Source of the DNA: a virus
Taxonomy: Duplodnaviria; Heunggongvirae; Uroviricota; Caudoviricetes
DNA: 49,242 bases
Direction: 5' to 3' (one strand)
Virus record (IMG/VR): IMGVR_UViG_2690316195_000003
Part shown: one piece after another, positions 1,534 to 36,251 of the stretch
How the letters are laid out: each line of letters starts with the position of its first letter
How positions within the stretch are numbered: the stretch's first letter is position 1
Notes under the pieces: generated by a model
Seen by the model: the letters and a program-made list of their open reading frames with translations, nothing else
What the model was told of the DNA's origin: nothing
Databases searched by the model: none
Made by a program: the position numbers and the translations under genes

Positions 1534-2329
1534 AGAAATGACGTATGTTAAATAGATTGAAAAGATAAGATTCAAATCAATTAAATGACGCTTTAAAAAT
1601 AAGCGGCAGGATTTTATTCATCTGATAAAAATAGCGCAAGAGTTGTCTTATATGGAATATTCAGATAAGTCTTATTGAAAAAAACGGTATAACAAATACA
1701 TAACATTACGGCCATTATACATACATTATAAAAATTACAGAGATATTTAATTAAATCCAAAGCATTTTTTCAATATGGATTTCGAAGAACTTGTTATAGT
1801 ACATTAATCAATCAATTATTGGTATTTCGCTCACTGTTCATATAGTTTTAATACATCAATGCATAAGAACATTTTCTCATTCATAAAAGCGATAAAAACT
1901 GTTGTACCTTATATTGTTAATGTTTGGTAACAAAGACAAATCCAACAAGGCATTGATCATCCCCTATGATACCCATAGAAAGAATTATCTGACATATAAT
2001 AACGATATAAAGTATATTATTGCTAATGAAACTATATGATAGCTTCACATTCAGCAATACCTGCTCAACCTTATCTCTGGAAATGAACATTGCTAACTTT
2101 CCTACTCCTTAATCGTTCTCCCAGAGCGCATCATCCACACCGACAATCCCCTCAGGCATCAGCCAGGTGACATTTTCCGCTAATGGGCTGGTTCAGAGAT
2201 AAATAGTGCGTCCCCGGAAGCCAAGTCAAAGAGCATTTTTCCCCTGTGACCTTCAACGGCTACTTACTGTTTAAAAACAGCTACGATGCCAGCATAGATA
2301 CTCTTGAATACGATGTACTACGTTTTTTC

Positions 2330-7058: not shown

Positions 7059-8234
7059 TTATTCAACCTCTTCTAAACTGCTCACTCTGGACCCTCGGCG
7101 GAAATTATCATCATTTTTAACATACTCGTATGAATCCAGAATCAAACCAGATATGCGAAGTATATCTTCCGGATTAGTTATATGTATCCTTTTACCATCC
7201 GTATCAAGTCGAGCTCGTCTTATTTCATTCAACTGAACTTCACTAAGCGAAATAGGTAAAGTTATAAATGAAGATTTTTTATCATAAAATCTTAACAGCC
7301 ATCTATTAGTTTTACCATTCAATAGCACACCAAAATATGACTCAGTATCTTTATATTCTATATTATCTTCTGTTTGTATGATTTGTTTTACCCTTTCAAA
7401 TAGCTCCAATTCTTTGGCTGTGGTTATTATGTTGGGGTTTTCTTCATCAACAATGGCGTTATTAACTTGTGTATCCGTTGCATCATTTTCTTTAGTTTGC
7501 TCTACCGGTTGTGTAGATAGCCCGGAAACCACCATTGCGCTAACAGCGCGCTCAACGGCCTGTTTAACTAATGGAGTCACGAACTCAAGAAATCTCTGAT
7601 TAAGTTGTCTCTCAATATTTGAACGACTAGCAACATATCGAACAAACTCCAGATCAACTTCACGAAGACTAGAACTGATTGTTTTAGTAAATGAATTCAA
7701 ATAAACACTTTCTTCAGCCAGTGTCCGTAAAGCCTCTGGTTTGAATTTATCATAACGAAAACGAAATAATTGTGTAATATCGGAGTGAGTTAGAGAATCC
7801 ATTCTTATTTTTAAAAACGGCGTTGAATCCATTATGTTTTTTTGTTTCAAATCCGTAAAAAAACGCCATTCAACACCATTTGTAATGGCTGATATAGTAA
7901 CTTCCGGTGTTGAATTAAAATATCTTGATAGCTGTGGGCAGTGATTATCAATTTGTTCTGAAAACGATTTCGCCTCAATGAACATCACAGGAACATCATG
8001 ACAAAATAAAGCGTAATCAACCCGTTCATTAGCCTTAACCCCGGGGAAGTCAGCACTATACTCAGCTTTGACTTTTCTTGGATCATACGGAGTAAAACCA
8101 AGAATATCTAGTAATGGCATAATGAGTGCTTGTTTTGTCGTTTCTTCAGTTGTACAAAACACCCCCATTTTTGCAACATGCTCTGTGTGTATTTTTAACT
8201 TATTTGCAAAATTTTCCATGCTTGTCTCCTCCAT
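7059..8234 (-). CDS. PD-(D/E)xK nuclease-like protein (type I restriction HsdR N-terminal-like domain) with uncharacterised C-terminal half
   Basis: N-terminal region ...TKQALIMPLLDILGF...ERVDYALF...VMFIEAKSF... fits the D...(D/E)xK catalytic core; visibly AT-rich relative to flanking tail genes; strong ribosome-binding site ggaggagacaag before the ATG; own terminator. Confidence 0.55.
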   Translation of the reverse strand: MEETSMENFANKLKIHTEHVAKMGVFCTTEETTKQALIMPLLDILGFTPYDPRKVKAEYSADFPGVKANERVDYALFCHDVPVMFIEAKSFSEQIDNHCPQLSRYFNSTPEVTISAITNGVEWRFFTDLKQKNIMDSTPFLKIRMDSLTHSDITQLFRFRYDKFKPEALRTLAEESVYLNSFTKTISSSLREVDLEFVRYVASRSNIERQLNQRFLEFVTPLVKQAVERAVSAMVVSGLSTQPVEQTKENDATDTQVNNAIVDEENPNIITTAKELELFERVKQIIQTEDNIEYKDTESYFGVLLNGKTNRWLLRFYDKKSSFITLPISLSEVQLNEIRRARLDTDGKRIHITNPEDILRISGLILDSYEYVKNDDNFRRGSRVSSLEEVE

Positions 8235-21510: not shown

Positions 21511-22324
21511 GTTTGCCCTTCTCCGTTAAAAATTCGTCGGGTAGTTTCTGAGGGGCGTAGATCGGCAGAGCATCGCAACTGCAATAAACCTCCTCCCCGG
21601 CAGCAGTGATTTCGTCATAAAAACCATATACGGGCTTAATAAGCCCCTGCTCCAGCGCCCACGAATCGCGGAGGAGATAAATTTTCTCGTCGCGCTCTTT
21701 GTGGTCCTGTCGGTATTTGTAGCCCGGACGCCGCCAGTTAGAATGCCAGCGCAGAGCAATCGCACCACTCTGAACAGCCAGCAGATACTTAACGTTGCTC
21801 GCCAGCTTATGTCCCTGGTCAATTGCCACCCGGCGACTGATAAAATCCATATCCTTCACGGACTTCTGAAAACCGGACTTCACTTCCCGGCGATCAATTT
21901 CGCTCACCCCGTCAGGCGGAATGGACGTAACCCATCCCTGAAAACGCTGTATGGTTTTCTCGATAGCCTGTTCGCGGTTGAGTTTTATCAGGTTGGCACT
22001 GGCGAAAATTCGCCTGTCTAGTTCCTTGCGAAACTCAGGTTTCAGTTTTTCAACAGTGATTTTTTTAGGGCCGTCAGGAGGCTGATCCCGTAATGCCCCG
22101 CCGTCGATGACAAGACGGCTGTAGATAGCGGTGAGGTGTTTTCTGGCTACGGTATCATCAGGGGTTTCTCGCTGAGCGGCTACACGGAGTTTCCGGCACC
22201 ATTCGAGCAATGATTTTTCGCTATCCCACCCGTGATTTACGTAGTAGTTAACGGCATCCGTCAGAACCTCATATAGCGTCCTGATCCGTTTCTTCTTCCT
22301 CACCGCCCGGCTGGAAATTGCCAT
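21491..22324 (-). CDS. head morphogenesis protein (minor head protein, Mu F-like position)
   Basis: ORF downstream of the portal gene; start placed at the internal ATG (MAISSRAV...) to reduce overlap with portal; start uncertain. Confidence 0.4.
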   Translation of the reverse strand: MAISSRAVRKKKRIRTLYEVLTDAVNYYVNHGWDSEKSLLEWCRKLRVAAQRETPDDTVARKHLTAIYSRLVIDGGALRDQPPDGPKKITVEKLKPEFRKELDRRIFASANLIKLNREQAIEKTIQRFQGWVTSIPPDGVSEIDRREVKSGFQKSVKDMDFISRRVAIDQGHKLASNVKYLLAVQSGAIALRWHSNWRRPGYKYRQDHKERDEKIYLLRDSWALEQGLIKPVYGFYDEITAAGEEVYCSCDALPIYAPQKLPDEFLTEKGKREFNRA

Positions 22325-23708
22325 CAGGCGTCTCCTGCTTCGGTGGTTCATAATTCGCCAGCGCGTCCACATCAATGATGAGTGGAGCTTCGCCATAGGT
22401 TTGCGTGGCATTAACAAGGCTTGCCAGCCATTCAGTGACGGCGGCACGGTTTTCAGGATCAACCTGTGGCGACACGGCAGAGAAAAGTGCTATCGCCTGT
22501 TGAATCACTTTACTGTCGCTTTCCCGGCGTTTGTCCGGCGACTCCTCCACCAGCTCCTGCCATGTCGCGGTAAATTCACGTCGCCACTGGTAAAACGTGG
22601 TTTTATAGTCATCAGTTATGATGTCCGGGTAATCATTTTTCAGCGACTGATAAAATTCCTCGTTCCAGGCGATGTACTGCACCAGGCGTTCGAAATAATC
22701 CATCACGGGTTCAATCTGCTGGCGTACACCATCGATATACTGGCTGATGGCTTTCGAATCTTCGGTCCCCTCACCGAAACCATTCGAAAAGGCTTCCTCT
22801 TTGATGAGGATCGCCGGAACGTCACTCCCTGACGCAATATCGGAAATAATATTGTCGCGTGCAGCGTTTAGCGCACCATCGATGTTTTGTAGATTTAGCG
22901 AGGTAACGTCCTCATCCTTCCCGATACTAAGCACACCTTTATTTTTTGCCTCTTTGACGTTTTCCCTTTTTCGTCCCGTGGCGGCAGCCATGATCCCGTC
23001 AAGTTTCGAACCGTACTGCACAACTTTAGCTACCAGTACGCCCGCCTTCTGGCTGACGAGATCATTCGCCTCCATCGTGTTGATATAGGATTTCAGGGAA
23101 TAAAGAACGCGCTGAAACACACTACGTCCGGTGAATCCGAACGATGAACTCTGAAACTCCAGATAAATCGGTGTGCCGTTGAAGATTTTCAGTGTGCGTG
23201 ACGGATGCCAGTCTTTCCCACCAATCTTCAGTTTTTTATTGGCTTCCTGGAAAAACGGGCTGTTGGGGTTCTGGTCAGTCACCATCGAACCGGAAGCGTT
23301 CAACGGGTCCCACGCGTTGATATACACGTCATCTTCTGTCAGTCCGAACGTCGGAAGCGGTTCACGACATGGAACGCTGTCGGTGCCCACGCCGATCGCT
23401 GCAGCACCGTAGCAACGAGACAGAAAAAACAGATTTTTAATCTTCTCGTTGACCTTCATGCGTTCCCATACCTCCTGAAAACGCCTCACAACCCTCTCGT
23501 CAGGGTCTGTCTCCACGTTATACTGGCGCGGCTTACACATCGCCATCAGTATGGGTTTTTCGACAAGTTTTCCGCCCAGAGGATGGAATTGCCACAGCTG
23601 CTTACACAATTCATAGCCAATGTCGGTTCCCGGCTGAATTTCTTCAGCCTCAAGAATATGCATCAGTGCTGAACCGAGGCCGCCAGTAATCTCGATCTCT
23701 GCCATCAA
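22269..23708 (-). CDS. portal protein
   Basis: 479-aa ORF immediately downstream of the terminase large subunit; acidic C-terminus. Confidence 0.6.
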   Translation of the reverse strand: MMAEIEITGGLGSALMHILEAEEIQPGTDIGYELCKQLWQFHPLGGKLVEKPILMAMCKPRQYNVETDPDERVVRRFQEVWERMKVNEKIKNLFFLSRCYGAAAIGVGTDSVPCREPLPTFGLTEDDVYINAWDPLNASGSMVTDQNPNSPFFQEANKKLKIGGKDWHPSRTLKIFNGTPIYLEFQSSSFGFTGRSVFQRVLYSLKSYINTMEANDLVSQKAGVLVAKVVQYGSKLDGIMAAATGRKRENVKEAKNKGVLSIGKDEDVTSLNLQNIDGALNAARDNIISDIASGSDVPAILIKEEAFSNGFGEGTEDSKAISQYIDGVRQQIEPVMDYFERLVQYIAWNEEFYQSLKNDYPDIITDDYKTTFYQWRREFTATWQELVEESPDKRRESDSKVIQQAIALFSAVSPQVDPENRAAVTEWLASLVNATQTYGEAPLIIDVDALANYEPPKQETPDGNFQPGGEEEETDQDAI

Positions 23709-23723
23709 AAATATCCTGATTTT

Positions 23724-25052
23724 TTACAACGCCGCGTAATTACCGTGCGCGATAATCAATCCATAGGTATAACAATCGAAAAGGTCATCAGCACGTTTAT
23801 GCGCGTCTTTGTCTGCCAGGTGGAACCCGGCGATTTGTTTAATGAGGTGGTTTGCGGTGGTACGTTTGAATGAAACGGTCTTGTCGTAAGCCTCCCGGAC
23901 GATTTTGCACATCCCCTGATAGTGGTAGCTGGATGCCATCACCGCCCGTTCTTCTTTACCTTTGCTGGTTAGTGCCGATTTAATCGGCGTCATATCCCAG
24001 CCTTCGGTTTCCGCCTTCTGGTTGAGGATTGCCCCCATCGCGGCGTCTTCCATAAAAATTCCCTGGCAGCCCAGACGCGGACGGCATAATTTCGCGAGGC
24101 GCTCGAGGTTTTCATAAACGCCGGGGATATATTCAGGAAGCAATGACGCTTTAATTTGCGTCACATCCCAGTCAATAATCGTCAGTTTTGGCTCGTCCGA
24201 ATACGTTGACTCATAAGCGAAATACAACACGCCAGTACCATCATTTTCGGTCCCGCCTTTCAGCGCCGTATCCATCACTGCGAAAATCATGTCGCAGTAC
24301 GGCGGCATCTCAATCGGCTGACCGTCCACCAGCAGCTTATCGACATCGAGTAACGCGTCTTTGGACCAGTCCACGAACTCGGCAAGATATTCCTGCTGCC
24401 AGACACGCGGATCGGATTTCTTCTCCGTTTCCTCCAGTTCTTCTTTCGGAATATACGGATTCGATGAAGTTGGCGCATGGTGCATGACAAATCCCAGGGA
24501 TTCATCGTGGCATATCGCGTAGAAAAAATTGCTCTCGTCGATACCGTTTGGTGTGGAAAATACCCACGCACAGCCACGGTAATCAACAAGCGTCGGGCGT
24601 ATAGCGCGGGGCCAGATTTCCTCGAGCATTTCCGGCGATTTAGTGAATGCGGCCTCATCAATCAGCACAGCGTGATATTTACGCCCACGCCCGGCCAGTT
24701 TGTTATTGTCCGTTACCCAAAAGTCGATGCGCCCCCCATTACGGAGAATAATGCGCTTTTCATTTTTTGACTGGCTGAGGATCAGCGGTTGCAGAACGGC
24801 GCTAATTTCATCCCAGATTTCCTGGTACTGGCGGTATTGTGCGGTAAAAATCCCCACCCTACCCGCGATAAGTTGCCCGGTGGTAGGAACGGCAAATTTC
24901 CGCGTAGCGAAACTGGTAGCGATGTTTACCAGCATCACCGTTTTACCCCAGCGACGACCACAGCATACCGCGTGGAAGCGTTCCTCTATTGCCGCCGTCC
25001 ATGCAGCTATTTGCCCCTCATGAGGTTTTGGGAGGTAGATTTCAATCGACAT
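23724..25052 (-). CDS. terminase large subunit
   Basis: Walker A-like CCGRRWGKT near the N-terminus, a Walker B-like HAVLIDEAAF stretch, and a C-terminal nuclease-like region; 442 aa. Confidence 0.8.
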   Translation of the reverse strand: MSIEIYLPKPHEGQIAAWTAAIEERFHAVCCGRRWGKTVMLVNIATSFATRKFAVPTTGQLIAGRVGIFTAQYRQYQEIWDEISAVLQPLILSQSKNEKRIILRNGGRIDFWVTDNNKLAGRGRKYHAVLIDEAAFTKSPEMLEEIWPRAIRPTLVDYRGCAWVFSTPNGIDESNFFYAICHDESLGFVMHHAPTSSNPYIPKEELEETEKKSDPRVWQQEYLAEFVDWSKDALLDVDKLLVDGQPIEMPPYCDMIFAVMDTALKGGTENDGTGVLYFAYESTYSDEPKLTIIDWDVTQIKASLLPEYIPGVYENLERLAKLCRPRLGCQGIFMEDAAMGAILNQKAETEGWDMTPIKSALTSKGKEERAVMASSYHYQGMCKIVREAYDKTVSFKRTTANHLIKQIAGFHLADKDAHKRADDLFDCYTYGLIIAHGNYAAL

Positions 25053-26133
25053 TATCCACTCCCGGCATCGGCAGAGAGTTGTGGATAATTATTTCGTTAT
25101 TCTCACCACCCACGCCTTTTTTGAGGTTTTCAATCTCAGTGCGCAGCTTTTCGTTGCGAAGCCTCAGTCCTTCAAGCTCCAGATCATTGCGACTGTCAGT
25201 TGCACCACCAGCAGAACTTCCTTTCGTCGCCATTATCAGCTTGATAAGTTCGCGCCGGGCGGCAGCCTTATCCTCCAGCAGGATCTCAACACCAAATTTC
25301 CCGAGCTTTGCCCCTGCATATAATTGTCGCGCATCCCCATCAAGCAGAGTGGTATCAGCCATATAAAGCTGTCCCGTTCCCTCACCGCAGCACTTCGGAC
25401 AATCCGGATTGGGTATGGCGTTATCAACAAAGCCGAGGCCTCCATATTCCGGCTCGGGTTTGCCATCTCTGGAGGCCTGTGCCGCTGCCTTATCGAATTC
25501 TGCAATATCACGCCACTGGTAGAGATGATTCTCGCCCCAGCAATAACGGCAGTTAACACGGCGAAATTGTGCCAACTGATTGGGGTCGGCCTGGACAATA
25601 GCCATCAACTGACTCACCAGTAAATCCAGGTCTGCGGTATAGCGTTTCTGATACTGATTGCGGAAGTAGCTGATAGCACGATAAACCCTGGCATTTCTAA
25701 GCATACGGCTGGCGTTGCTGTTAGCTGTCGCACCTTGCCCCTCATAACCAGCCAGTCGGTATGCCTCTGTCGGCTTTTTCCCCTGAGCAACAAGCATCGC
25801 AAACTTAGCCTGCTGGTCAGAAATGCCGAATTCATCGGGGCAGAACGAAAATTCCTCCGCGTCGCCCTCATTCAGGCACGCATCGGATACTGGCTTTTTT
25901 TTCTGAGATTTTCCGTTCCGCTTTTGCGCAGTCTGCGCAGATTTTTTCTGCGCACTTTGTTGCGCAGTTTTGCGCATTTCTGTCTGCGCATTTTTCGGAG
26001 GTTTTTTGATGTAACGACGGGCTGTTGCGTAATTCAGTCCCCTTGCCTCACACCATGCCACCGGAGATACACCGGAGCGGGTGTATTCAGCAATATATTC
26101 CTGCTGCAACGCCCCCCAGTCCGGTCTGCTCAT
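25042..26133 (-). CDS. terminase small subunit (HTH N-terminus, Cys-rich C-terminal region)
   Basis: N-terminal ...YIAEYTRSGVSPVAWCEARGLNYATARRYIKK helix-turn-helix-like; directly upstream of and overlapping the terminase large subunit. Confidence 0.55.
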   Translation of the reverse strand: MSRPDWGALQQEYIAEYTRSGVSPVAWCEARGLNYATARRYIKKPPKNAQTEMRKTAQQSAQKKSAQTAQKRNGKSQKKKPVSDACLNEGDAEEFSFCPDEFGISDQQAKFAMLVAQGKKPTEAYRLAGYEGQGATANSNASRMLRNARVYRAISYFRNQYQKRYTADLDLLVSQLMAIVQADPNQLAQFRRVNCRYCWGENHLYQWRDIAEFDKAAAQASRDGKPEPEYGGLGFVDNAIPNPDCPKCCGEGTGQLYMADTTLLDGDARQLYAGAKLGKFGVEILLEDKAAARRELIKLIMATKGSSAGGATDSRNDLELEGLRLRNEKLRTEIENLKKGVGGENNEIIIHNSLPMPGVDNVD

Positions 26134-26136
26134 TAG

Positions 26137-26388
26137 TTAGTCCTGATTTTTATCCACCCTGAGTAGTTCACGCAGGGCAAAGGCATCCCCTTTTCTGGCA
26201 AGCTTAAACAATGCCGCCCGTAGTTCGGCTTCACCTTTCGCTCTGCCCTTACGGATGGATGCGTAAAAATCTGTCATTGCTTCCCGATTTTCTTTCAGTC
26301 GGTTCAGATCAACATCCAGAACGTCAGCGATTTGTTGTGCAGTCATCCGGCACGCTGCCAGAGACTCGACTTTCGAATACGGAATCAT
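26137..26388 (-). CDS. hypothetical small protein
   Basis: 83-aa ORF, stop 4 bp from the terminase small subunit start. Confidence 0.3.
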   Translation of the reverse strand: MIPYSKVESLAACRMTAQQIADVLDVDLNRLKENREAMTDFYASIRKGRAKGEAELRAALFKLARKGDAFALRELLRVDKNQD

Positions 26389-27274
26389 TTGTCACCCCCA
26401 TTGATATGCAGGGTGTCTTCTTCCTGTATTTTTCGTGAAGGATTTTTACTGCAGCGTTGTTCCAAGTGACCTGATGGTGAATGCGTTTATGGCTGGCCCC
26501 CATCAGTGAGATTTTTACGCACGAGGGCGCATACATGACGGAGTAAAAACTTTTAACGTAGGTTCCGGAATCCAGATACAGCTCGGTCATTCCGCCGCTG
26601 TTTTTCTGCGTCTGTTTCTGCCCTAACTGGACAGCACCGATCGTCATAAACAATTCACCACAGCGACCGAGATTCGTGTACGTATTCACATCCTCGTTAA
26701 TGCGCCCCATGAATGAGAACGGTCGATCAACCGAACAGATAAAGCTGTTCATTGCCTTGCGTTTCACCCACGAAGCATGGCCGCCATTGTCACCAAGAAA
26801 ATCCCCGCCCTGCGACATAGCGATGGAAAGCGCAGGTATTGATTCGTAGTACGCCAGCATTTCAGAAAGGATCGCATCCAGTTTTCTTATCGGGAAATAG
26901 GCCTGGTCATAGTTGCGATCCACCCGAAACTGGAACTCGTGATAATCATCATCGAGCTGAATGAAGTATTTACACCCGACCAGTTTTGCCAGGTCGAAAC
27001 AGGCATTACGGGCGTAAAAAATTGAGCGGCGATCACCGAAATTATCGGCTTCGTCAAAACGACTGGCTATATCGGCTTTGGAAAACACCAGCACCTGTTC
27101 ACCAAATTCAACTATGTACTGATGCCGTGTCTTATCTTCATCATCAACAACGATAAAAATTTTCCCGGTATAGCCAGCACGACGCAACGTCCGGTAAGTC
27201 AGAACTTTGTCCGGTCGCCCGTGAGTCAGAATAAAGGCGCAAAAATCATCACGCATATTCCTCCTCCCCGCCAT
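26324..27274 (-). CDS. hypothetical protein, possible GT-A-like transferase (DxD motif)
   Basis: IFIVVDDEDK and KYFIQLDDDYHEF motifs resemble the nucleotide-binding and DxD motifs of GT-A fold transferases; assignment tentative. Confidence 0.35.
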   Translation of the reverse strand: MAGRRNMRDDFCAFILTHGRPDKVLTYRTLRRAGYTGKIFIVVDDEDKTRHQYIVEFGEQVLVFSKADIASRFDEADNFGDRRSIFYARNACFDLAKLVGCKYFIQLDDDYHEFQFRVDRNYDQAYFPIRKLDAILSEMLAYYESIPALSIAMSQGGDFLGDNGGHASWVKRKAMNSFICSVDRPFSFMGRINEDVNTYTNLGRCGELFMTIGAVQLGQKQTQKNSGGMTELYLDSGTYVKSFYSVMYAPSCVKISLMGASHKRIHHQVTWNNAAVKILHEKYRKKTPCISMGVTNDSVFESRVSGSVPDDCTTNR

Positions 27275-28037
27275 GCATGATCTCCACCATGTGCTGCGTC
27301 ATCCGGACAAATCCATTTTCAATAGCCTGCTGATAATCAATGATCACCAGCGCCGACTCCTCAAAAAGGCGCTGAATTTCAGCGGGGGCGTGAGCGTAAT
27401 AATCCGCAATTCTGCTGAAATTAAACACCGTGTGGCGTTCTGCCGCGCACAGGAGGAATTTTTCGATATCAGGCTCAAGGGACGCCGAACGTATCCGGCT
27501 GATCAGCTCCTGAGTTTTCGTATCGTCGTACAGTTCACTGATATCCGGTTTATCGCCCGACGGCTCATAAACAGGCGTATCAATTTTCGTCGTATACTGC
27601 TCCTCCTCATTTCCGGTACCTGGCAAAACTTCCATCAACAGTTCATCAATTTCTGTTGGGCTGAATCCTGTCAGGGAGATATCAAAATCAGCATTGATTA
27701 GCTCCGACAGTTCCACCCGTAACAGTTCTTCATCCCAGCCAGCGTTGAGCGGCAGGCGATTATCTGCCAGGCGGTACGCCTTTTTCTGATCATCCGTCAG
27801 GCCAGACAGAACAATGACCGGAACAGAATCCATTTTGAGCACCTCAGCCGCCATCACGCGACCGTGACCAGCAATAATTTCGCCCTTTTCGTCAATCAGC
27901 ACCGGATTGGTCCAGCCGAATTGCTTAATGCTTTCTACCAGTTGTGCCACCTGCTCAGGGCTGTGTGTCCTGGCGTTGTGCGCATACGGAGACAGTTTTT
28001 GCAACGGGCGATAGACGATCTTCAATTTCTCGCTCAT
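27249..28037 (-). CDS. ParB-like nuclease domain protein
   Basis: N-terminus ...LSPYAHNARTHSPEQVAQLVESIKQFGWTNPVLIDEKGEIIAGHGRVMAA matches the ParB/Srx N-terminal domain including the GxGR-type motif. Confidence 0.7.
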   Translation of the reverse strand: MSEKLKIVYRPLQKLSPYAHNARTHSPEQVAQLVESIKQFGWTNPVLIDEKGEIIAGHGRVMAAEVLKMDSVPVIVLSGLTDDQKKAYRLADNRLPLNAGWDEELLRVELSELINADFDISLTGFSPTEIDELLMEVLPGTGNEEEQYTTKIDTPVYEPSGDKPDISELYDDTKTQELISRIRSASLEPDIEKFLLCAAERHTVFNFSRIADYYAHAPAEIQRLFEESALVIIDYQQAIENGFVRMTQHMVEIMHGGEEEYA

Positions 28038-30041: not shown

Positions 30042-30785
30042 TTATTCTTGAGTAACACTTAAACTCATCTCATTGAATGCAGCCATCCTGTAACCTGCCG
30101 GTGTAACACCAAAATAACTCCTGAATACGCTGATAAAATAAGATGTAAAATTATAGCCGCACTGAGCAGCGATTCTGTTGATGGCGCAACGAGATTGATT
30201 CAACAGCATTGCTGCCATTCTCATTCTCTCTGTAAGCAACAACTCACTGAAACAGGTGCCTTCTTCTTTCAGTCTTTTTTTTAACAAACTTTCACTGATA
30301 CATAACCGCGAAGACACATCTCTCAGAGTCCAGTTTGCTGCAATGTCCGTACGAAACAATGCACTAAGCCTGTCACTAATATTGCTAATACACGCGGTCA
30401 GAAACGACGAAAACATCTTCTCTGATGAGAAAAACGCCAGACACGAAAAGGAAAGCATTTCCGCTAAATTGTCCGTATGAATCTTTTCCTCACAAAGATA
30501 ATCAATCAGGATGCCCATCAATTCTGCCTTCGGAAAACTCACGCAAAGATATCGTGGTATTTGCCGGACTAAAACTACATCCTGTTTTTCGTCTCCACAC
30601 AACAGGTAACGGCTAATTGTCGATTCACTGAGACTTATTCGCCGAAAACATTCCGAAAAGGGCAATAACGATCCAGCTCCCCCCCTGACAAGAAGTGCAC
30701 TACCACTTTCAAGAGAGAGCTCTTTTCCTTCAAAGAGCACAACAAACGGGGAATGAACAAAAACAACAGAACAGGCTTCATTCAT
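30042..30785 (-). CDS. AraC-family transcriptional regulator (prophage moron)
   Basis: C-terminal AraC-type helix-turn-helix region (WTLRDVSSRLCISESLLKKRLKEEG...INRIAAQCGYNFTSYFISVFRSYFGVTPAGYR); start placed at MNEACSVVF; sits between the Q-dependent terminator and the holin. Confidence 0.8.
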   Translation of the reverse strand: MNEACSVVFVHSPFVVLFEGKELSLESGSALLVRGGAGSLLPFSECFRRISLSESTISRYLLCGDEKQDVVLVRQIPRYLCVSFPKAELMGILIDYLCEEKIHTDNLAEMLSFSCLAFFSSEKMFSSFLTACISNISDRLSALFRTDIAANWTLRDVSSRLCISESLLKKRLKEEGTCFSELLLTERMRMAAMLLNQSRCAINRIAAQCGYNFTSYFISVFRSYFGVTPAGYRMAAFNEMSLSVTQE

Positions 30786-30905
30786 ATCAATTGCCCTGAC
30801 ATTACTGGTCACAAGATAAGTATATATCGATTTACAAAAATACAAGCCGAAAGACCAGTATTCGCAACCACCAGCACGTTTTATGTTCTCTGCCGTTTTT
30901 CGGAC

Positions 30906-30931
30906 ATAAAAAACCCGCTCAATGGCGGGTT
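30906..30931 (-). terminator. tR-prime-like intrinsic terminator downstream of Q
   Basis: Minus-strand hairpin aacccgcc-attga-gcgggtt followed by a T-run; located between the Q-like gene stop and the late genes. Confidence 0.45.
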
Positions 30932-31014
30932 GTATCAAAGTTCATGCGCTTGGTTCACCTCGCGATACAGCTTTGCGAAGCTTAGCAAAATTGAAGCGGT
31001 TTATGCGTAAAAAA

Positions 31015-32857: not shown

Positions 32858-35122
32858 TTATACGGAAACTGGCACACGAGCAGGCAATGGATAGTGAGCC
32901 CAGTTATTAGCACTTAAAGCTCTTACGCCATCAGCATAAACTTGTGTGTTTCCATCTAATGATTTTAAAGTTACTACAATAGTTACAGGTAAAGGCTCCA
33001 TTAAGGCCGGTTCATTCGCTCTCAACGTTGTTTTAGCTTGAAGAGCCCAGTTACCCGAAGTAATTCCTTTATTAAATGCCTTGCGATGAATTTTTACTGG
33101 TGACCACTTTCCACCATGCTCAATTTGAGCTCTCTCATATCCAGATTGACCGTTTTCTCCTTCCATAGGTACTTTTCCTTTTATAGTATTATTCTCAATT
33201 AAGCCAAAACTTAGCTCTACGTTCGCGCGAACATATTCACTGCCGGCATTAGGGTTCAGTGGTGGTGCATATGCAGCAGTAATTACAATCTCACCTTTAA
33301 ATTTTCCATTTTGAATAAGTGCCGATGGTATGGGATAGTTTTCCTTTCTCCACCTCACCCCAGGAACCAAGAATGTTTGGAAAATCAGAGTAAACCTATC
33401 ATCACTATCATATAAGGTCTCAATAACCTCATTAGGAATTCCCGCTCCCAAATAGCGTCTTTCACTTGGCGAGTAATCAGGAGAAGATAATTGAGCGGAA
33501 TGAATTAATAATGCTTTAATCAATGATGGTGAAACATTAAAGTCTGAATTAGTGGCTATTCTCTGCCATGTATGCGCAGCTAAACTTGCCACAATTGGAG
33601 CAGCAAAACTAGTACCAAAATTAGAGCAAAGCCTATTATCTGGCCCTACGACCTTTAAACTGCTTGCTCCTACATTCCAAGGTCTATGAACCCCACCGCC
33701 AGCATGGATTATATCTGGCTTTGGAGTAAATACAGGCCCAGGGCCACGACGAGTATATGGTGTCGGTGTTCCAATTTCACTTAAAGCATCATTAGCTTCC
33801 ATATGAGAAACTGAACCAACTGTTAGTGCTCGGACTGACTCTCCAGGAGAGGAAATTAAATCAGCACCTCCAAGCGGATCAGGATTTGGCCATGTACGTA
33901 TAGGTTCATCTACATAATTACCTGCAGCAACTACAAACAAAATACCAAATTTATCGCTGAGCCGATCTAACTCCATCGCAAAATCACTAAACATCTGCTC
34001 ATTACATGGTCCGCCTCCCAAAGACAAATTCCAGACTTTTATATCTGGTCTTTTATTTACAGCATCTGCTAGCCTCAGAATTAAATCTGATATATAAGAT
34101 CCATTTTCATCTAAAGCACAAACATCATGGATTTTAGATTTTGTATCAGGAATCCATGGATGATTGTCATTTAAAAAATGAGCGCCTGATATCAATGAAG
34201 ACACCATAGTCCCATGTTCATAACTCGTATCAGGAGGAATTACGTATGTTTCCCTACTCACTACCCAAGGAGTAATTGTTGCCGCGATGGGGCTTACCCC
34301 AGTGTCAAATACAGCAACAATGGGTAATTCTTCTGATGGTACGGGAAAGCTATTTGTTTCAATGCCAACAGAATCACTTACACTAACCGGGAATGCTGAA
34401 TATTTTGGTTCTGGAATTAACGTTCTTATACCCGGGTAATCAATGAGAATGTCTAATATATATCTATCATTTGGGGATAAATCCATTATCCTTAATAAGG
34501 GAAGACCACATTTTTGTCTAATCTCATCATATTTAACTCCGTGTTGTTCTAATATAGAAATAACGTTTTCATAGTTGTTGTAAGTTGCATCTTCACCTGT
34601 GTACTCAAATAGTCGTACAAGGATGTTTGATGATTCAAACAAACCATCAGTGCCTCCTGGAACCTTCCTATTCTCATCCCAAGGTTCAATGCGCTCAATC
34701 GCGCTTAGATTAGCCAAAATCGCTTTAATATTCCGATGTAAAATGACTGACTCTAATACGTCAAAACAGCCGGCATGAGCAGCAACCAACATTTCATCTA
34801 TTTTGGCATGACCGGCATTTTGCAATCCAGCCTCTTGAGCAATTTTGTTCGGCCTATGCGTTTTGGCTATTCCCTGGTCTCTTAATTTGAAAACCAAAGT
34901 ACCCAAGCTTCCAGGGTACTCTGAAAGTTTGGATTCTAAATAATGTTTACTGGTTGTTAAATTTCTTACTAACCCTTGTCTATATTCGGCTGTTACATCA
35001 ACCAATACCTTTGCCCCACCGCCAGCGTTTACTATTGCACCCAAGTCACTACTGGAAAAAGGGATTCTTAACATTGGGTTTGTAACTTTTGCGTTACTAA
35101 ACTGTGTACCCCTTCTGCTCAT
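32858..35122 (-). CDS. S8 subtilisin-like serine protease, cytoplasmic (no signal peptide), with extra N- and C-terminal domains
   Basis: Catalytic triad motifs in canonical order: IVAVFDTGV (Asp273, codon 34304-34306), YEHGTMVSS (His303), GTSFAAP (Ser505), plus NLSLGGG and VVAAGN subtilase motifs; 754 aa; AT-rich. Confidence 0.85.
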   Translation of the reverse strand: MSRRGTQFSNAKVTNPMLRIPFSSSDLGAIVNAGGGAKVLVDVTAEYRQGLVRNLTTSKHYLESKLSEYPGSLGTLVFKLRDQGIAKTHRPNKIAQEAGLQNAGHAKIDEMLVAAHAGCFDVLESVILHRNIKAILANLSAIERIEPWDENRKVPGGTDGLFESSNILVRLFEYTGEDATYNNYENVISILEQHGVKYDEIRQKCGLPLLRIMDLSPNDRYILDILIDYPGIRTLIPEPKYSAFPVSVSDSVGIETNSFPVPSEELPIVAVFDTGVSPIAATITPWVVSRETYVIPPDTSYEHGTMVSSLISGAHFLNDNHPWIPDTKSKIHDVCALDENGSYISDLILRLADAVNKRPDIKVWNLSLGGGPCNEQMFSDFAMELDRLSDKFGILFVVAAGNYVDEPIRTWPNPDPLGGADLISSPGESVRALTVGSVSHMEANDALSEIGTPTPYTRRGPGPVFTPKPDIIHAGGGVHRPWNVGASSLKVVGPDNRLCSNFGTSFAAPIVASLAAHTWQRIATNSDFNVSPSLIKALLIHSAQLSSPDYSPSERRYLGAGIPNEVIETLYDSDDRFTLIFQTFLVPGVRWRKENYPIPSALIQNGKFKGEIVITAAYAPPLNPNAGSEYVRANVELSFGLIENNTIKGKVPMEGENGQSGYERAQIEHGGKWSPVKIHRKAFNKGITSGNWALQAKTTLRANEPALMEPLPVTIVVTLKSLDGNTQVYADGVRALSANNWAHYPLPARVPVSV

Positions 35123-36251
35123 ATGCTCCTGACTCCTTCAGAATGTTTGAAATTACTCTTGATGTAAGTTTGTACAAATTAGCAAGAACTCTGATAGAAA
35201 ATAATTTTTTATCTTTAGAACGTAACCAACGAATTTCATCTTCGTAAGTGCTTAAATTTACACCTTCCATAAGCGATTGAGCAAGATACAAACGCCTATA
35301 CAATTTATGGTGATTTATCACACTTGCACCTTCAATAACTGCATCCCTACGTGCATCCAAGCTCACCTGTTCAATTATTGCTCCGGATAATCCTTCCGAT
35401 TTTCTTGATAAATCACTTAAATCTAGATCGCTACATATCATATTCTTTAAACGATTTTTCCAAATTAACTCTCTCTGATGTATGTCAGGCAGAGGCATTG
35501 GAATTCTGAAGCTAAATCGCCTCCAGATTGCAGGATCCAGAAGTTGCTCATGGTTAGTTGAGGCAATAATTACCGTATCCTCTGATGCCGCATCCATATT
35601 CTGCAATAGTGAAATGACAACTCGCTGAAGCTCACCTATATCTCTCTCATTACCTCTTGCTCCAGCTAAAGCATCAAATTCGTCTAAAAAAAGCACTGAT
35701 GGCCTCTGCATTACATAATCGAAAACCTGTCTAAGATTTTTGCTGGTTTGTCCCAATAAACTACTAATCAAAGTATCGCAACGCACTGTAAGAAGTGGAA
35801 AATCTAAGCGGGTAGCGATGTACTTAGATAACATAGTCTTACCTGTTCCTGGCTTTCCATACACGAGCATACGACTCGGCAATGCTGCATCAGCTTTAAC
35901 AAACTCATCATAACGTTGAACATTAGTGATAAACTCTTCAACACGGGTACTGATTGCTGCAGGCAGAAAAATCTCTGAACTGTCTAATTTAGGATAACTG
36001 ACATCAACAGTGTTGAGTCGACTATCAATATCTACCGGTAATGAGCCCAGAGATATCCCACCTCCAGCCCTTTGAGCTCCTGCCAACGCCTGGGGAGCTC
36101 TAAGCAACCTTTCTCTTATCATTCTGGCTTGCTTGACCTCCCCTTTTTGTTCGAGCTTATCTGCCAGCAACCCAGCATAATTACTAGCCATCGAAGCATT
36201 TGCCTTTGTTGCACCTTCAATGATTTTTAACACTTCTGATAAATAATCCAT
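35097..36251 (-). CDS. classical AAA+ ATPase
   Basis: Walker A YGKPGTGKTML, Walker B VLFLDEFDAL, and sensor / second region of homology IIASTNHEQLLDPAIWRRFSF; 26-bp overlap with the downstream protease gene indicates an operon. Confidence 0.85.
   Translation of the reverse strand: MDYLSEVLKIIEGATKANASMASNYAGLLADKLEQKGEVKQARMIRERLLRAPQALAGAQRAGGGISLGSLPVDIDSRLNTVDVSYPKLDSSEIFLPAAISTRVEEFITNVQRYDEFVKADAALPSRMLVYGKPGTGKTMLSKYIATRLDFPLLTVRCDTLISSLLGQTSKNLRQVFDYVMQRPSVLFLDEFDALAGARGNERDIGELQRVVISLLQNMDAASEDTVIIASTNHEQLLDPAIWRRFSFRIPMPLPDIHQRELIWKNRLKNMICSDLDLSDLSRKSEGLSGAIIEQVSLDARRDAVIEGASVINHHKLYRRLYLAQSLMEGVNLSTYEDEIRWLRSKDKKLFSIRVLANLYKLTSRVISNILKESGAYEQKGYTV

What the first reader, a model, noticed from the sequence alone, without database searches (positions are those of the whole stretch)
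26324..28037. ParB-like nuclease-domain protein plus possible glycosyltransferase-like protein directly upstream of the terminase genes
The ParB/Srx N-terminal domain protein is followed, with overlap, by a 316-aa protein with GT-A-like motifs (VVDDED, LDDDY). This arrangement next to packaging genes could be a DNA-modification or anti-restriction module, or a packaging accessory. The transferase call is weak and rests on short motifs only.
Basis: inference. Interest (0 to 1): 0.5.

Follow-up and report, generated by a model that had tools for sequence, protein, structure and literature searches.

The report
ParB-coupled glycosyltransferase cassette beside terminase
This E. coli prophage carries a tightly linked gene pair just before its DNA-packaging genes, a ParB-like nucleotide-binding protein and a sugar-transferring enzyme from the family that decorates phage DNA, but it has no gene for the hydroxymethyl base those enzymes normally need, so its target is unknown and testable.

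Summary
All the genes lie on the minus strand. A 262-aa ParB/Srx-fold protein (27249-28037) is translationally coupled to a glycosyltransferase (26324-27256). The glycosyltransferase is most likely 310 aa, not 316. An 83-aa TerS-like ORF, TerS and TerL follow.

The transferase call is now strong:
- Pfam TAGT match, E 2.4e-34.
- PHROG 842 match, E 2e-102.
- A GT-A fold model.
- Invariant R...DDD...NED motifs.

The ParB partner has a nucleotide-binding domain, a disordered linker with a conserved YTxKIxxPxYxP motif, and a highly conserved helical C-terminal domain. It has no HTH and is acidic. Its N-terminal module is 46-56% identical to the N-termini of phage ParB-DNA-methyltransferase fusions.

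In three independent samples (233 loci; bacteria of at least 12 phyla and archaeal viruses) the two genes are always paired, usually just upstream of unrelated terminase types. The whole prophage, and the neighbourhoods sampled, show no recurrent TET/JBP or hydroxymethylase gene.

My best reading (confidence about 0.5) is a ParB-licensed glycosyltransferase that acts on phage DNA around packaging, on an acceptor other than a hydroxymethyl-pyrimidine. The main rival is protein glycosylation. The cassette is uncharacterised, occurs in about 16% of complete E. coli genomes, and is directly testable.

The parts
27249..28037 (-). ParB/Srx-fold partner protein, 262 aa, acidic (pI 4.6). PGAP labels it 'ynaK'.
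   Evidence: Pfam ParB_N E 1.3e-6; phrog_620 E 8e-88 over the full length. The AF2 model and Foldseek hits match Noc, MxParB, PadC, KorB and sulfiredoxin. pI.
27753..28037 (-). Nucleotide-binding (ParB-CTPase fold) domain, aa 1-95. It has box I N21-A-R23, box II G57-H-G-R60 and box III D92-N93.
   Evidence: A profile alignment to Noc/ParB structures puts IIAGHGR on IIAGERR and LADN on LIEN. These residues are conserved in 57 diverse partners. Residues 8-146 match the N-terminus of a PADLOC MTase_II model (E 4.6e-38) and phrog_498 DNA methyltransferase (E 1.9e-51).
27561..27596 (-). Conserved short motif YTxKIxxPxYxP (aa 148-159) inside a predicted disordered acidic linker (aa 137-169).
   Evidence: pLDDT is below 50 across aa 137-169. 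The motif is at least 80% conserved in partners from bacterial and archaeal viruses.
27276..27524 (-). Helical C-terminal domain (aa 172-254), the most conserved part of the partner: FL..AA.RH.VF...IA.YYAH...Q.LME.SALVIID..AIE.G.
   Evidence: Conservation. No Pfam or PDB relative was found. Loci seeded on this domain all carry the glycosyltransferase downstream.
27249..27267 (-). Coupling junction: Shine-Dalgarno GGAGGAGG (27260-27267), GT start ATG (27254-27256), and the ParB stop TGA inside the 8-nt overlap ATGCGTGA (27249-27256).
   Evidence: Read directly from the sequence. Homologous pairs overlap by 4-29 nt.
26324..27256 (-). TAGT-family GT-A glycosyltransferase, 310 aa (the longest ORF starts at 27274, giving 316 aa). 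PGAP calls it 'GREB1-related protein'.
   Evidence: Pfam PF20691 E 2.4e-34; phrog_842 E 2e-102. PGAP name. AF2 N-terminal domain is confident. Foldseek PDB hits are GT-A enzymes; BFVD top hits are TAGT proteins at E 6.6e-20.
26945..26953 (-). DxD motif D108-D109-D110 of QLDDDY (316-aa numbering), the predicted metal/NDP-sugar binding site.
   Evidence: Invariant in alignments A1, A2 and A7; two of the three Asp are retained in the Aeromonas phage Aeh1 homologue. It matches the R...DDD...EDY/F motif described for phage DNA GT-A enzymes and JGT (bioRxiv 10.1101/2023.12.21.572611).
26687..26698 (-). N193-E194-D195-V196 of GRINEDVNTY, the second acidic catalytic motif.
   Evidence: Invariant in all alignments, including Aeh1.
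26405..26620 (-). Basic C-terminal region (aa ~219-290) with TQxxxGGxTxxY, GTYxKSFY and RxHH motifs. It lies mostly beyond the Pfam model.
   Evidence: Invariant columns. The C-terminal 94 aa have pI 9.3. AF2 predicts this region poorly with the shallow alignment.
26137..26388 (-). 83-aa ORF (PGAP: 70 aa) overlapping the non-conserved GT tail. It is a TerS-like small DNA-binding protein and belongs to the packaging context.
   Evidence: phrog_309 'terminase small subunit' E 1.7e-22, aa 3-77. Junction sequence.
25042..26133 (-). Terminase small subunit (context).
   Evidence: Pfam Terminase_2; phrog_51 E 2e-71.
23724..25052 (-). Terminase large subunit (context).
   Evidence: Pfam Terminase_6N; phrog_2.

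Best explanation
The two genes form one functional unit, a ParB-licensed glycosyltransferase.

Shown or strongly supported:
- The downstream protein is a GT-A enzyme of the TAGT family with an intact DxD/NED active site. It should transfer a sugar from a nucleotide-sugar donor.
- The upstream protein is a ParB-CTPase-fold protein with conserved NTP-binding boxes, no HTH, a disordered linker carrying a conserved peptide motif, and a family-specific C-terminal domain.
- The genes are translationally coupled, co-inherited, under purifying selection, and sit in the late operon between the lysis genes and the terminase genes.

Inferred mechanism:
- Late in infection the ParB partner uses its C-terminal domain and/or linker motif to hold or activate the basic glycosyltransferase on double-stranded phage DNA. 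This would resemble ParB176 activating its T-dioxygenase on dsDNA, and the same ParB N-module that is covalently fused to phage DNA methyltransferases.
- Concatemeric DNA would then be glycosylated just before or during packaging.
- The likely pay-off is protection of injected DNA from restriction or other nucleic-acid-targeting defences. A packaging-related mark is also possible.
- Neither this prophage nor the homologous cassettes encode a 5-methylpyrimidine dioxygenase or a hydroxymethylase. The acceptor would therefore be something other than 5hmC or 5hmU: a canonical base, the backbone, or DNA ends. It remains unidentified.
For: Enzyme identity. The family-wide motifs are shared with the T4-like phage Aeh1 homologue.

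ParB architecture and NTP boxes.

Obligate pairing:
- 81/81 loci seeded on the GT in viral contigs.
- 76/76 loci seeded on the ParB linker plus C-terminal domain. In 72 the genes are directly adjacent. In 4 a phosphatase-cytidylyltransferase gene lies between them.
- 76/76 loci in genomes of at least 12 phyla.
- The pair is also present in Lactobacillus phages phi jlb1 and c5 and in haloarchaeal virus HHTV-2.

Other support:
- Downstream terminases belong to at least 4 Pfam types, so the constant features are the ParB partner and the position beside the packaging genes.
- The ParB N-module is 46-56% identical to the N-termini of phage adenine DNA methyltransferases. In the one such fusion whose neighbourhood shows it (MW202613), the gene sits directly upstream of a TerS-like gene and the terminase.
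- The GT is basic and the ParB partner is acidic.
- dN/dS is 0.10 and 0.16.
- The whole prophage lies in the window and has no TET/JBP or Thy-like gene.
- The neighbourhoods show no recurrent dioxygenase.
- Occasional accessory genes are sugar-nucleotide enzymes, second GTs, and fused O-methyl- or sulfotransferase domains, as in known DNA-glycan clusters.

Literature: ParB-dependent T-dioxygenases (PMC13229309); the proposal that ParB directs the modification apparatus during packaging (PMC8256090); solitary TAGTs flagged as unexplained (PMC13216743).
Against: - No biochemical data exist for any member of this cassette.
- All characterised DNA substrates of this enzyme family carry a hydroxymethyl or glucosyl hydroxyl group. 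Canonical dsDNA offers no comparable nucleophile, and direct glycosylation of canonical DNA is unprecedented.
- GREB1, a TAGT-like domain, glycosylates a protein (PMC7968844).
- The ParB partner is acidic throughout and has no DNA-binding domain, so DNA targeting is not evident from its sequence.
- The position next to the terminase is also a common slot for unrelated accessory genes.
- The neighbourhood scans list only the 25 commonest Pfam families. A dioxygenase present in a single locus could have been missed.
- The C-terminal third of the GT model and the ParB C-terminal domain model have low confidence.
Confidence: 0.5

Rival explanations
1. The transferase glycosylates a protein rather than DNA. 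The acceptor would be the ParB partner itself or a packaging or virion protein. The invariant Tyr and Thr residues of the conserved YTxKIxxPxYxP linker motif are candidate sites. ParB would then be the substrate or a scaffold.
For: - GREB1's TAGT-like domain O-GlcNAcylates ER-alpha (PMC7968844).
- Foldseek hits include protein-glycosylating GT-A enzymes: glycogenin, ColGalT1 and SunS/ThuS.
- The conserved Tyr/Thr motif lies in a disordered linker.
- No hydroxymethyl-base pathway is present.
- Mycobacteriophages encode glycosyltransferases and an O-methyltransferase among their virion genes, which the authors suggest may modify the capsid (PMC4351075).
- Sugar-tailoring fusions and accessory genes would fit protein glycans equally well.
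Against: - Terminase (and by implication structural-module) types differ among cassette-bearing viruses from bacteria and archaea. The only constant protein candidate is therefore ParB itself.
- The ParB N-module is the one fused to DNA methyltransferases.
- The GT is basic and keeps every motif shared with the T4-like phage homologue.
Confidence: 0.2
2. The acceptor is a small molecule or RNA. Examples are a nucleotide bound by the ParB NTP pocket, a defence signalling nucleotide, or a tRNA base. The pair would then be a metabolic or anti-defence enzyme that does not modify the genome.
For: - The ParB/Srx fold includes small-molecule kinases (SerK, sulfiredoxin) among the structural hits.
- The fold binds CTP, ATP or GTP in different families (PMC12704722).
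- A cytidylyltransferase fusion is inserted between ParB and GT in 4 loci.
Against: - There is no precedent in the TAGT family.
- Late-operon placement beside the terminase across hundreds of viruses, and the kinship to DNA-methyltransferase fusions, point to DNA.
- Neither protein matches a PADLOC defence or anti-defence model, apart from the MTase N-module.
Confidence: 0.1
3. A conventional TAGT acts on hydroxymethyl-pyrimidine DNA made elsewhere, for example the DNA of a superinfecting T-even phage. It would be a prophage-encoded exclusion or interference function, or would depend on an unrecognised hydroxylase.
For: The family's known substrates are 5hmC or glucosyl-5hmC (PMC13216743, PMC13390438). 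The cassette is common in E. coli lysogens.
Against: - The same cassette occurs in lytic Lactobacillus phages, a haloarchaeal virus and many environmental viruses, where this logic does not apply.
- It sits in the late lytic operon.
- No dioxygenase or hydroxymethylase is found in the complete prophage or recurrently in the neighbourhoods.
- The subfamily has its own motifs (QGGD, RKAMN) that are absent from the T4-like homologue.
Confidence: 0.05
4. The two genes have separate functions. ParB would be a partition or packaging-site accessory (or a nuclease). The transferase would be an unrelated moron, for example one that remodels the cell envelope.
For: The historical annotations are 'partition protein' and 'ParB-like nuclease'. 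The position just upstream of the terminase is a common accessory-gene slot.
Against: - Pairing is 233/233 with overlapping reading frames across at least 12 phyla and archaeal viruses.
- The two proteins have correlated divergence (Mantel r 0.49, 0 of 2000 permutations).
- There is no ParA, no HTH, and the scores are below the TIGR00180 cut-off.
- PGAP annotates no Gtr-type seroconversion genes anywhere in the prophage, and the host range spans Gram-positive bacteria, Gram-negative bacteria and archaea.
Confidence: 0.05

Closest known systems
ParB-dependent phage thymine dioxygenases (5mYOX176/ParB176; O'Toole et al., PNAS 2026, PMC13229309)
   Same: - A small ParB-CTPase-fold protein with a nucleotide-binding domain, a short helical segment, a disordered linker and a C-terminal domain, and no HTH.
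- It is encoded next to a post-replicative DNA-modifying enzyme.
- Its structural neighbours are MxParB and CcParB.
- Such clusters often lie near terminases and GTs.
   Different: - The partner enzyme here is a glycosyltransferase, not a dioxygenase, and no dioxygenase is present.
- The C-terminal domain here is a distinct family found only with the GT in my sample.
- Dependence on ParB is untested here.
TAGT / beta-glucosyl-HMC-alpha-glucosyltransferase of T2/T6, and TET-associated GT-A enzymes (Pfam PF20691; Pyle et al. 2024; PMC13216743)
   Same: Same Pfam family, GT-A fold, R...DDD...NED motifs and C-terminal TQ..GG.T / GT..KS / R.HH motifs.
   Different: - There is no hmC or hmU supply, no alpha- or beta-GT, and no C5-methyltransferase or TET.
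- T2/T6 are not detected by tblastn at E 1e-3, and T4-like Aeromonas phage homologues are only 22-26% identical.
- The subfamily has its own QGGD and RKAMN motifs and an obligate ParB partner.
Phage ParB-N / DNA methyltransferase fusion proteins (phrog_498; PADLOC MTase_II; Kaljevic et al. PNAS 2025, PMC12704722)
   Same: The N-terminal ~140 aa are homologous at E 1e-38 to 1e-51 and up to 56% identical. In the one fusion whose neighbourhood shows it, the gene occupies the same slot directly upstream of a TerS-like gene and the terminase.
   Different: The catalytic domain is a fused methyltransferase. Here the catalytic enzyme is a separate polypeptide, and the ParB protein carries a unique C-terminal domain instead.
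Base J glucosyltransferase (JGT) and metazoan GREB1
   Same: Related GT-A domains with the same motif pattern, according to the literature. PGAP names the window protein 'GREB1-related'.
   Different: JGT needs JBP-made 5hmU. GREB1 acts on a protein and is fused to a helicase-like module. Neither is ParB-coupled. I did not make a direct sequence or structure comparison here.
Mycobacteriophage glycosyltransferase clusters among virion genes (e.g. Corndog gp35-38)
   Same: Phage-encoded GTs with sugar-tailoring partners near structural genes.
   Different: [quoted passage not shown]

Membership tests
Pfam PF20691 TAGT (TET-associated glycosyltransferase) | Sequence match above the curated gathering score | tested here: met
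   119.5 bits against a 27.5-bit cut-off, E 2.4e-34, aa 14-228. All 120 listed homologues carry PF20691.
Pfam PF20691 TAGT (TET-associated glycosyltransferase) | GT-A fold with R...DDD...E-D catalytic motifs | tested here: met
   AF2 N-terminal domain pLDDT is mostly above 85. Foldseek hits are GT-A enzymes and viral TAGTs. R20, D108-D110 and E194-D195 are invariant.
Pfam PF20691 TAGT (TET-associated glycosyltransferase) | Genomic association with a TET/JBP dioxygenase or another source of 5-hydroxymethyl-pyrimidine | tested here: not met
   The whole prophage lies in the window. No TET/JBP, Thy-like or C5-MTase gene appears in the PGAP annotation or in Pfam scans of 19 large ORFs. No recurrent dioxygenase appears in about 290 neighbour proteins.
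Pfam PF20691 TAGT (TET-associated glycosyltransferase) | Transfers sugar to 5hm-pyrimidine (or its glucoside) in DNA | not testable with these tools
   This needs biochemistry.
ParB-dependent DNA-modifying enzyme systems (5mYOX/ParB type) | ParB-fold partner with a nucleotide-binding domain and a C-terminal domain, lacking an HTH DNA-binding domain | tested here: met
   AF2 architecture. The only Pfam domain that passes its cut-off is ParB_N. Foldseek hits are Noc, MxParB, CcParB and KorB.
ParB-dependent DNA-modifying enzyme systems (5mYOX/ParB type) | Cognate enzyme gene adjacent and co-oriented | tested here: met
   8-nt overlap in the window. Pairing is 233/233 elsewhere.
ParB-dependent DNA-modifying enzyme systems (5mYOX/ParB type) | The enzyme is an Fe(II)/2OG 5-methylpyrimidine dioxygenase | tested here: not met
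   The partner is a GT-A glycosyltransferase.
ParB-dependent DNA-modifying enzyme systems (5mYOX/ParB type) | Enzyme activity on dsDNA requires the ParB partner | not testable with these tools
   This needs co-expression or in vitro assays.
Canonical ParABS partition system | ParB with an HTH and dimerisation domain, a ParA partner and parS sites | tested here: not met
   TIGR00180 scores 36.7 bits against a cut-off of 58.45. No HTH domain is found. No ParA is annotated in the prophage. parS sites were not searched for.
T-even hmC glucosylation pathway | dCMP hydroxymethylase plus alpha- or beta-GT providing glucosyl-hmC for the second transferase | tested here: not met
   None is annotated or detected in the prophage.

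The most novel reading that the evidence does not exclude
The cassette installs a sugar directly on DNA that contains only canonical bases: on a base amine or oxygen, the backbone, or DNA termini. A ParB-fold NTP switch would license this, coupled to genome packaging. That would be a new chemical class of natural DNA modification, made by a two-gene module present in about one in six complete E. coli genomes and in viruses of many bacterial phyla and of archaea.
Probability: 0.3. Interest if true: 0.85.

Novelty: new variant of a known kind. Interest (0 to 1): 0.6.

Why it matters
Two recent papers leave two questions explicitly open. One is what the hundreds of 'solitary' TAGT glycosyltransferases in phages do (PMC13216743). 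The other is how ParB-fold proteins came to regulate DNA-modifying enzymes (PMC13229309).

This cassette joins the two questions in a genetically tractable host. It is a strictly conserved ParB-GT pair with no hydroxymethyl-base supply. It sits beside the packaging genes of an inducible-looking Rac-family prophage, and at least 80% of the cassette is present in 889 of 5426 complete E. coli genomes.

If it modifies DNA, it would reveal a new acceptor chemistry and a new layer of anti-restriction in temperate phages, with consequences for methylome and nanopore analyses of lysogens. If it glycosylates a protein, it would be a bacterial and archaeal viral counterpart of GREB1. Either outcome assigns a function to a very widespread gene pair. 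It also explains E. coli K-12 ynaK as the remnant of this pair.

Tried and rejected
- **Hidden hydroxymethyl pathway.** I looked for TET/JBP, thymidylate-synthase-like or C5-MTase genes in the complete prophage. I used the PGAP annotation plus Pfam scans of 19 large or unannotated ORFs. None was found.
- **ParB-GT fusion proteins.** I looked for these as Rosetta-stone evidence among the long representatives. The extra domains turned out to be SAM methyltransferase, sulfotransferase, a second TAGT, or unknown N-terminal regions, not ParB.
- **K-12 ydaY as a GT remnant.** It is unrelated to the GT. Only ynaK is a remnant, of the ParB gene.
- **ParB C-terminal domain.** A profile of it against PDB sequences gave only chance-level hits. 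Pfam and NCBIfam gave nothing for it.
- **PADLOC.** There is no defence-system model for the GT. The ParB partner hits only the N-module of a methyltransferase model.
- **Promoter and terminator scan of 25.9-31.2 kb.** It was uninformative. There is no convincing internal promoter, which is consistent with late-operon read-through.
- **Literature.** Nothing in the held library characterises a ParB+TAGT cassette. Papers on HHTV-2, phyllosphere phages and Cluster O phages gave no relevant data. Iyer et al. 2013, the original TAGT description, is not held. I therefore could not check whether they already noted ParB-only contexts.
- **Tool limits.** The afdb50 fold library was unavailable.
- **Deeper structure.** The C-terminal third of the GT and the ParB C-terminal domain are poorly modelled with the shallow alignments allowed. 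No complex prediction was possible.
Full report
**Setting.** The window is a complete Rac-family lambdoid prophage of E. coli, integrated between uspF and ttcA. It is 100% identical to NZ_AP045177. Most of the prophage, including the late region with the finding, is transcribed on the minus strand. The order around the finding is: Q-like antiterminator region, an AraC-type moron, holins and an M15 endolysin, small ORFs, then the ParB-like gene, the glycosyltransferase gene, an 83-aa ORF, TerS, TerL and portal.

**Observation.** The ParB-like ORF is 27249..28037 (262 aa). The second ORF is 26324..27274 at its longest (316 aa). The sequence at the junction reads GGAGGAGGAAT-ATG-CGT-GA. A strong Shine-Dalgarno sequence precedes the ATG at 27256, and the ParB stop codon lies inside the 8-nt overlap ATGCGTGA. 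Every homologue starts at the equivalent MRDDF, and PGAP uses this start. The protein is therefore most likely 310 aa. Its last ~25 residues are not conserved, and they overlap the 83-aa ORF. That ORF matches part of a terminase-small-subunit PHROG.

**The transferase.**
- The match to Pfam PF20691 (TET-associated glycosyltransferase, TAGT) has E 2.4e-34, and the match to phrog_842 has E 2e-102.
- PGAP names it 'GREB1-related protein'.
- The AF2 model has a confident N-terminal domain of about 220 residues. Foldseek finds solved GT-A enzymes (ColGalT1, SpsA, LARGE1, glycogenin, SunS) and, in the viral library, TAGT proteins at E down to 6.6e-20.
- Alignments extend to a Lactobacillus phage, a haloarchaeal virus and environmental sequences at about 40% identity. 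They keep R20, D108-D110, QGGD158, R172-K173, N193-E194-D195, TQ..GG.T..Y, GTY.KSFY and R.HH invariant.
- This is the R...DDD...EDY/F pattern reported for phage 5hmC-glycosylating GT-A enzymes and base-J glucosyltransferase.
- The T4-like Aeromonas phage Aeh1 homologue (25% identical) shares all of these motifs except QGGD and RKAMN. Those two are therefore candidate specificity determinants of the present subfamily.
- T2/T6 themselves are too distant to be found by tblastn.

**The ParB partner.**
- Only the N-terminal domain matches Pfam ParB_N. A profile of the family aligns IIAGHGR to the IIAGERR box II of Noc/ParB, and LADN to LIEN of box III.
- The AF2 model shows a confident nucleotide-binding domain (aa 1-95), helices at 103-134, a disordered acidic linker (137-169) and a helical C-terminal domain (172-254). 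Foldseek returns Noc, M. xanthus and Caulobacter ParB, PadC, KorB, sulfiredoxin and SerK.
- This is the architecture described for the ParB proteins that activate phage thymine dioxygenases: a nucleotide-binding domain, a short helical segment, an unstructured linker, a C-terminal domain and no HTH.
- I compared 57 partners that are 30-67% identical to the window protein. The conserved features are the three NTP-binding boxes, a linker peptide YTxKIxxPxYxP and, most strongly, the C-terminal domain. That domain has no relative in Pfam, NCBIfam or the PDB.
- The protein is acidic in every domain (pI 4.6, net charge -23). The transferase is basic (median pI 9.0 across diverse homologues; the C-terminal 94 aa have pI 9.3).
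- Residues 8-146 match the N-terminus of a PADLOC Type II methyltransferase model at E 4.6e-38, and a DNA-methyltransferase PHROG at E 1.9e-51. By tblastn they are 46-56% identical to the N-termini of annotated phage adenine methyltransferases.
- In the checked example whose neighbourhood shows the packaging genes (MW202613), such a ParB-N-methyltransferase fusion sits directly upstream of a small DNA-binding protein, the terminase and the portal. That is the same slot as the present cassette.

**The pair is a unit.** I tested this in three ways with a simple ORF caller and HMMs built here.
1. Seeding on distant transferases in IMG/VR gave 78 new loci, to which I added seven loci already in hand. 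In all 81 with room upstream, a full-length homologue of the window ParB lies immediately upstream on the same strand, typically overlapping by 4-29 nt. The homology includes the C-terminal domain.
2. Seeding on the ParB linker plus C-terminal domain gave 76 loci with a callable ParB. The transferase is directly downstream in 72. In the other 4 it lies one gene further on, after a histidine-phosphatase/cytidylyltransferase fusion.
3. Seeding on the transferase in one-genome-per-species contigs gave loci from many lineages: Bacteroidota, Firmicutes, Proteobacteria, Kiritimatiellae, Verrucomicrobia, Planctomycetota, Saccharibacteria, Cloacimonadota, Chlorobi-type bacteria and others, plus a Methanosphaera MAG. 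All 76 with room have ParB directly upstream of the first transferase, and two have tandem transferases.

Isolated viruses with the same pair include Lactobacillus phages phi jlb1 and c5 (where they are the first two genes after cos) and haloarchaeal virus HHTV-2. The transferase is also found by tblastn in Nocardia phage NTR1, 190-kb Vibrio phages and Porphyromonas phages; I did not inspect the neighbouring genes in those. Divergence of the two proteins is correlated (Mantel r 0.49, 0 of 2000 permutations). Among E. coli variants both genes are under purifying selection (dN/dS 0.10 and 0.16). At least 80% of the cassette is present in 889 of 5426 complete E. coli genomes, and remnants occur in a further ~680.

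**Context of the pair.** In 63 dereplicated loci, the two genes downstream are dominated by small HTH or TerS proteins and by large terminases of at least four Pfam types (Terminase_3, Terminase_6N, GpA, TerL_ATPase). Upstream neighbours are heterogeneous: HNH, replication, recombination and lysis genes. No family recurs in more than a handful of loci. No Tet_JBP family appears in the listed results. Because only the 25 commonest families are listed, a single occurrence could be hidden, but a recurrent association is excluded. Occasional accessory functions are:
- UDP-galactopyranose mutase;
- NAD-dependent epimerase/dehydratase;
- sugar-phosphate nucleotidyltransferases;
- a second TAGT;
- within single polypeptides, fused SAM-methyltransferase or sulfotransferase domains.

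These indicate real glycosyl transfer with diverse, sometimes tailored, sugars.

**What is missing.** The whole prophage is in the window. Neither the PGAP names nor Pfam scans of 19 large or unannotated ORFs reveal a TET/JBP dioxygenase, a thymidylate-synthase-like hydroxymethylase or a C5-methyltransferase. The name-giving context of the family is therefore absent. So is the only known kind of acceptor for its DNA-modifying members.

**Interpretation.** The steps I regard as shown are:
- an active-looking GT-A transferase of the DNA-glycosylating family;
- a ParB-CTPase-fold partner with intact NTP boxes and no DNA-binding domain;
- obligate, translationally coupled pairing;
- late-operon placement next to the packaging genes;
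- absence of a hydroxymethyl-base pathway.

The inferred step is that the partner licenses or targets the transferase on phage dsDNA. Four lines of evidence favour DNA:
- The acceptor must be common to viruses of Gram-negative bacteria, Gram-positive bacteria and archaea that have unrelated terminases. That leaves DNA, nucleotides or the ParB protein itself.
- The ParB N-module is closely related to the one fused to DNA methyltransferases, and a checked example of such a fusion occupies the same position beside the terminase.
- A precedent now exists for ParB-dependent activation of a DNA-modifying enzyme specifically on dsDNA. An older proposal holds that ParB proteins direct the modification apparatus during packaging.
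- The transferase is basic and keeps the family-wide motifs.

Against this reading, no hydroxyl acceptor is available in canonical DNA. GREB1 shows that the fold can work on proteins. The conserved Tyr/Thr-containing linker motif of the partner could be an acceptor or a docking peptide.

I put the DNA model at about 0.5, protein glycosylation at about 0.2, a small-molecule or RNA acceptor at about 0.1, and the remaining rivals at about 0.05 each.

**Comparison and novelty.** The cassette works most like the ParB/5mYOX pairs and the ParB-methyltransferase fusions, and the enzyme belongs to the TAGT family. It fails the defining contextual feature of 'TET-associated' enzymes, and it is not a partition system. 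Published mining studies mention ParB-like genes and terminases near phage GT-A genes. They also set aside GT contigs without a base-modification neighbour as less obviously DNA-related. Another paper counts 288 phages with solitary TAGTs of unknown role. I found no paper that recognises or tests this obligate ParB-TAGT pair. Iyer et al. 2013 could not be read. I therefore rate it a new variant of a known kind, of moderate to high interest. It is widespread and sits in a model organism, and one LC-MS experiment on induced phage DNA would decide between an unprecedented DNA modification and a viral protein-glycosylation system.

**Limits.**
- ORF calling was mechanical.
- Each collection scan returns only the best 80 loci to the seed, so the samples are broad but not exhaustive.
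- The structure models are shallow for the C-terminal parts.
- No complex could be modelled.
- All functional statements beyond family membership and gene linkage are inference.

Noticed in passing
window 27780-28037 (-); L168 4378-4641 (E. coli K-12 MG1655 ynaK): K-12 YnaK (87 aa, 'ParB-like nuclease domain-containing protein') is the first 86 residues of this ParB partner (94% identical). The rest of the gene, the glycosyltransferase, the terminase and the head genes are deleted in K-12 Rac. The neighbouring ydaY is unrelated to the transferase.
   Followed up: yes
window 27249-28037 (-); L001 23781-24038: In NZ_AP045177 PGAP annotates only the first ~86 codons of this intact 262-aa ORF, as a 'ynaK' pseudogene 'missing C-terminus'. 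This looks like an artefact of naming against the truncated K-12 protein. Other genomes annotate it as a full ParB/Srx protein.
   Followed up: partly
database proteins P0023, P0036, P0041-P0045, P0217, P0219, P0220, P0240: Many E. coli entries are truncated ParB or GT sequences (about 60-75% coverage, over 90% identity). They are fused in frame to Lom, tail-fibre or other prophage fragments. This suggests the cassette is a frequent deletion or recombination junction in decaying Rac-type prophages.
   Followed up: no
window 22269-23705 (-): The gene in the portal position is named 'anti-CBASS protein Acb1 family protein' by PGAP. In Pfam it matches only Phage_portal_3 (E 1.6e-12), so the name is probably misleading.
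   Followed up: partly
window 7059-8219 (-): A 386-aa protein with only the N-terminal domain of type I restriction R subunits (HSDR_N, a PD-(D/E)XK-like module) is inserted among the baseplate and tail genes, in a low-GC (0.35) patch. It looks like a moron of unknown role.
   Followed up: partly
window 33622-35257: A convergent pair lies in the nin-like region next to hokD, in low-GC DNA. The two genes are a 'Beta protein' family gene (PF14350, E 2.4e-52) and an sce7726-family gene. It is possibly a defence-type cargo cassette.
   Followed up: no
window 30042-30938 (-): An AraC-family HTH regulator gene (GC about 0.42) sits between the Q-like antiterminator region and the holin genes, i.e. 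at the head of the late operon. This is an unusual place for a regulator moron.
   Followed up: no
window 247-1575 (-): A YadA-like trimeric autotransporter adhesin gene (head, stalk and anchor domains) lies at the far end of the window, beyond the tail-fibre genes and next to uspF, in low-GC DNA. It may be prophage cargo.
   Followed up: no
L204 814-1782, L216 2145-3101, L229 5311-6306, L245 5332-6288: In four environmental viral contigs a fused histidine-phosphatase/cytidylyltransferase-like gene is inserted between the ParB and transferase genes. This hints at a phage-made CDP- or ADP-activated donor. Other loci carry UDP-galactopyranose mutase or an epimerase/dehydratase next to the pair.
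   Followed up: partly
proteins P0248, P0250, P0283, P0287: Some members of the transferase subfamily are fused to C-terminal SAM-methyltransferase or sulfotransferase domains. This implies methylated or sulfated sugars on the unknown acceptor.
   Followed up: no
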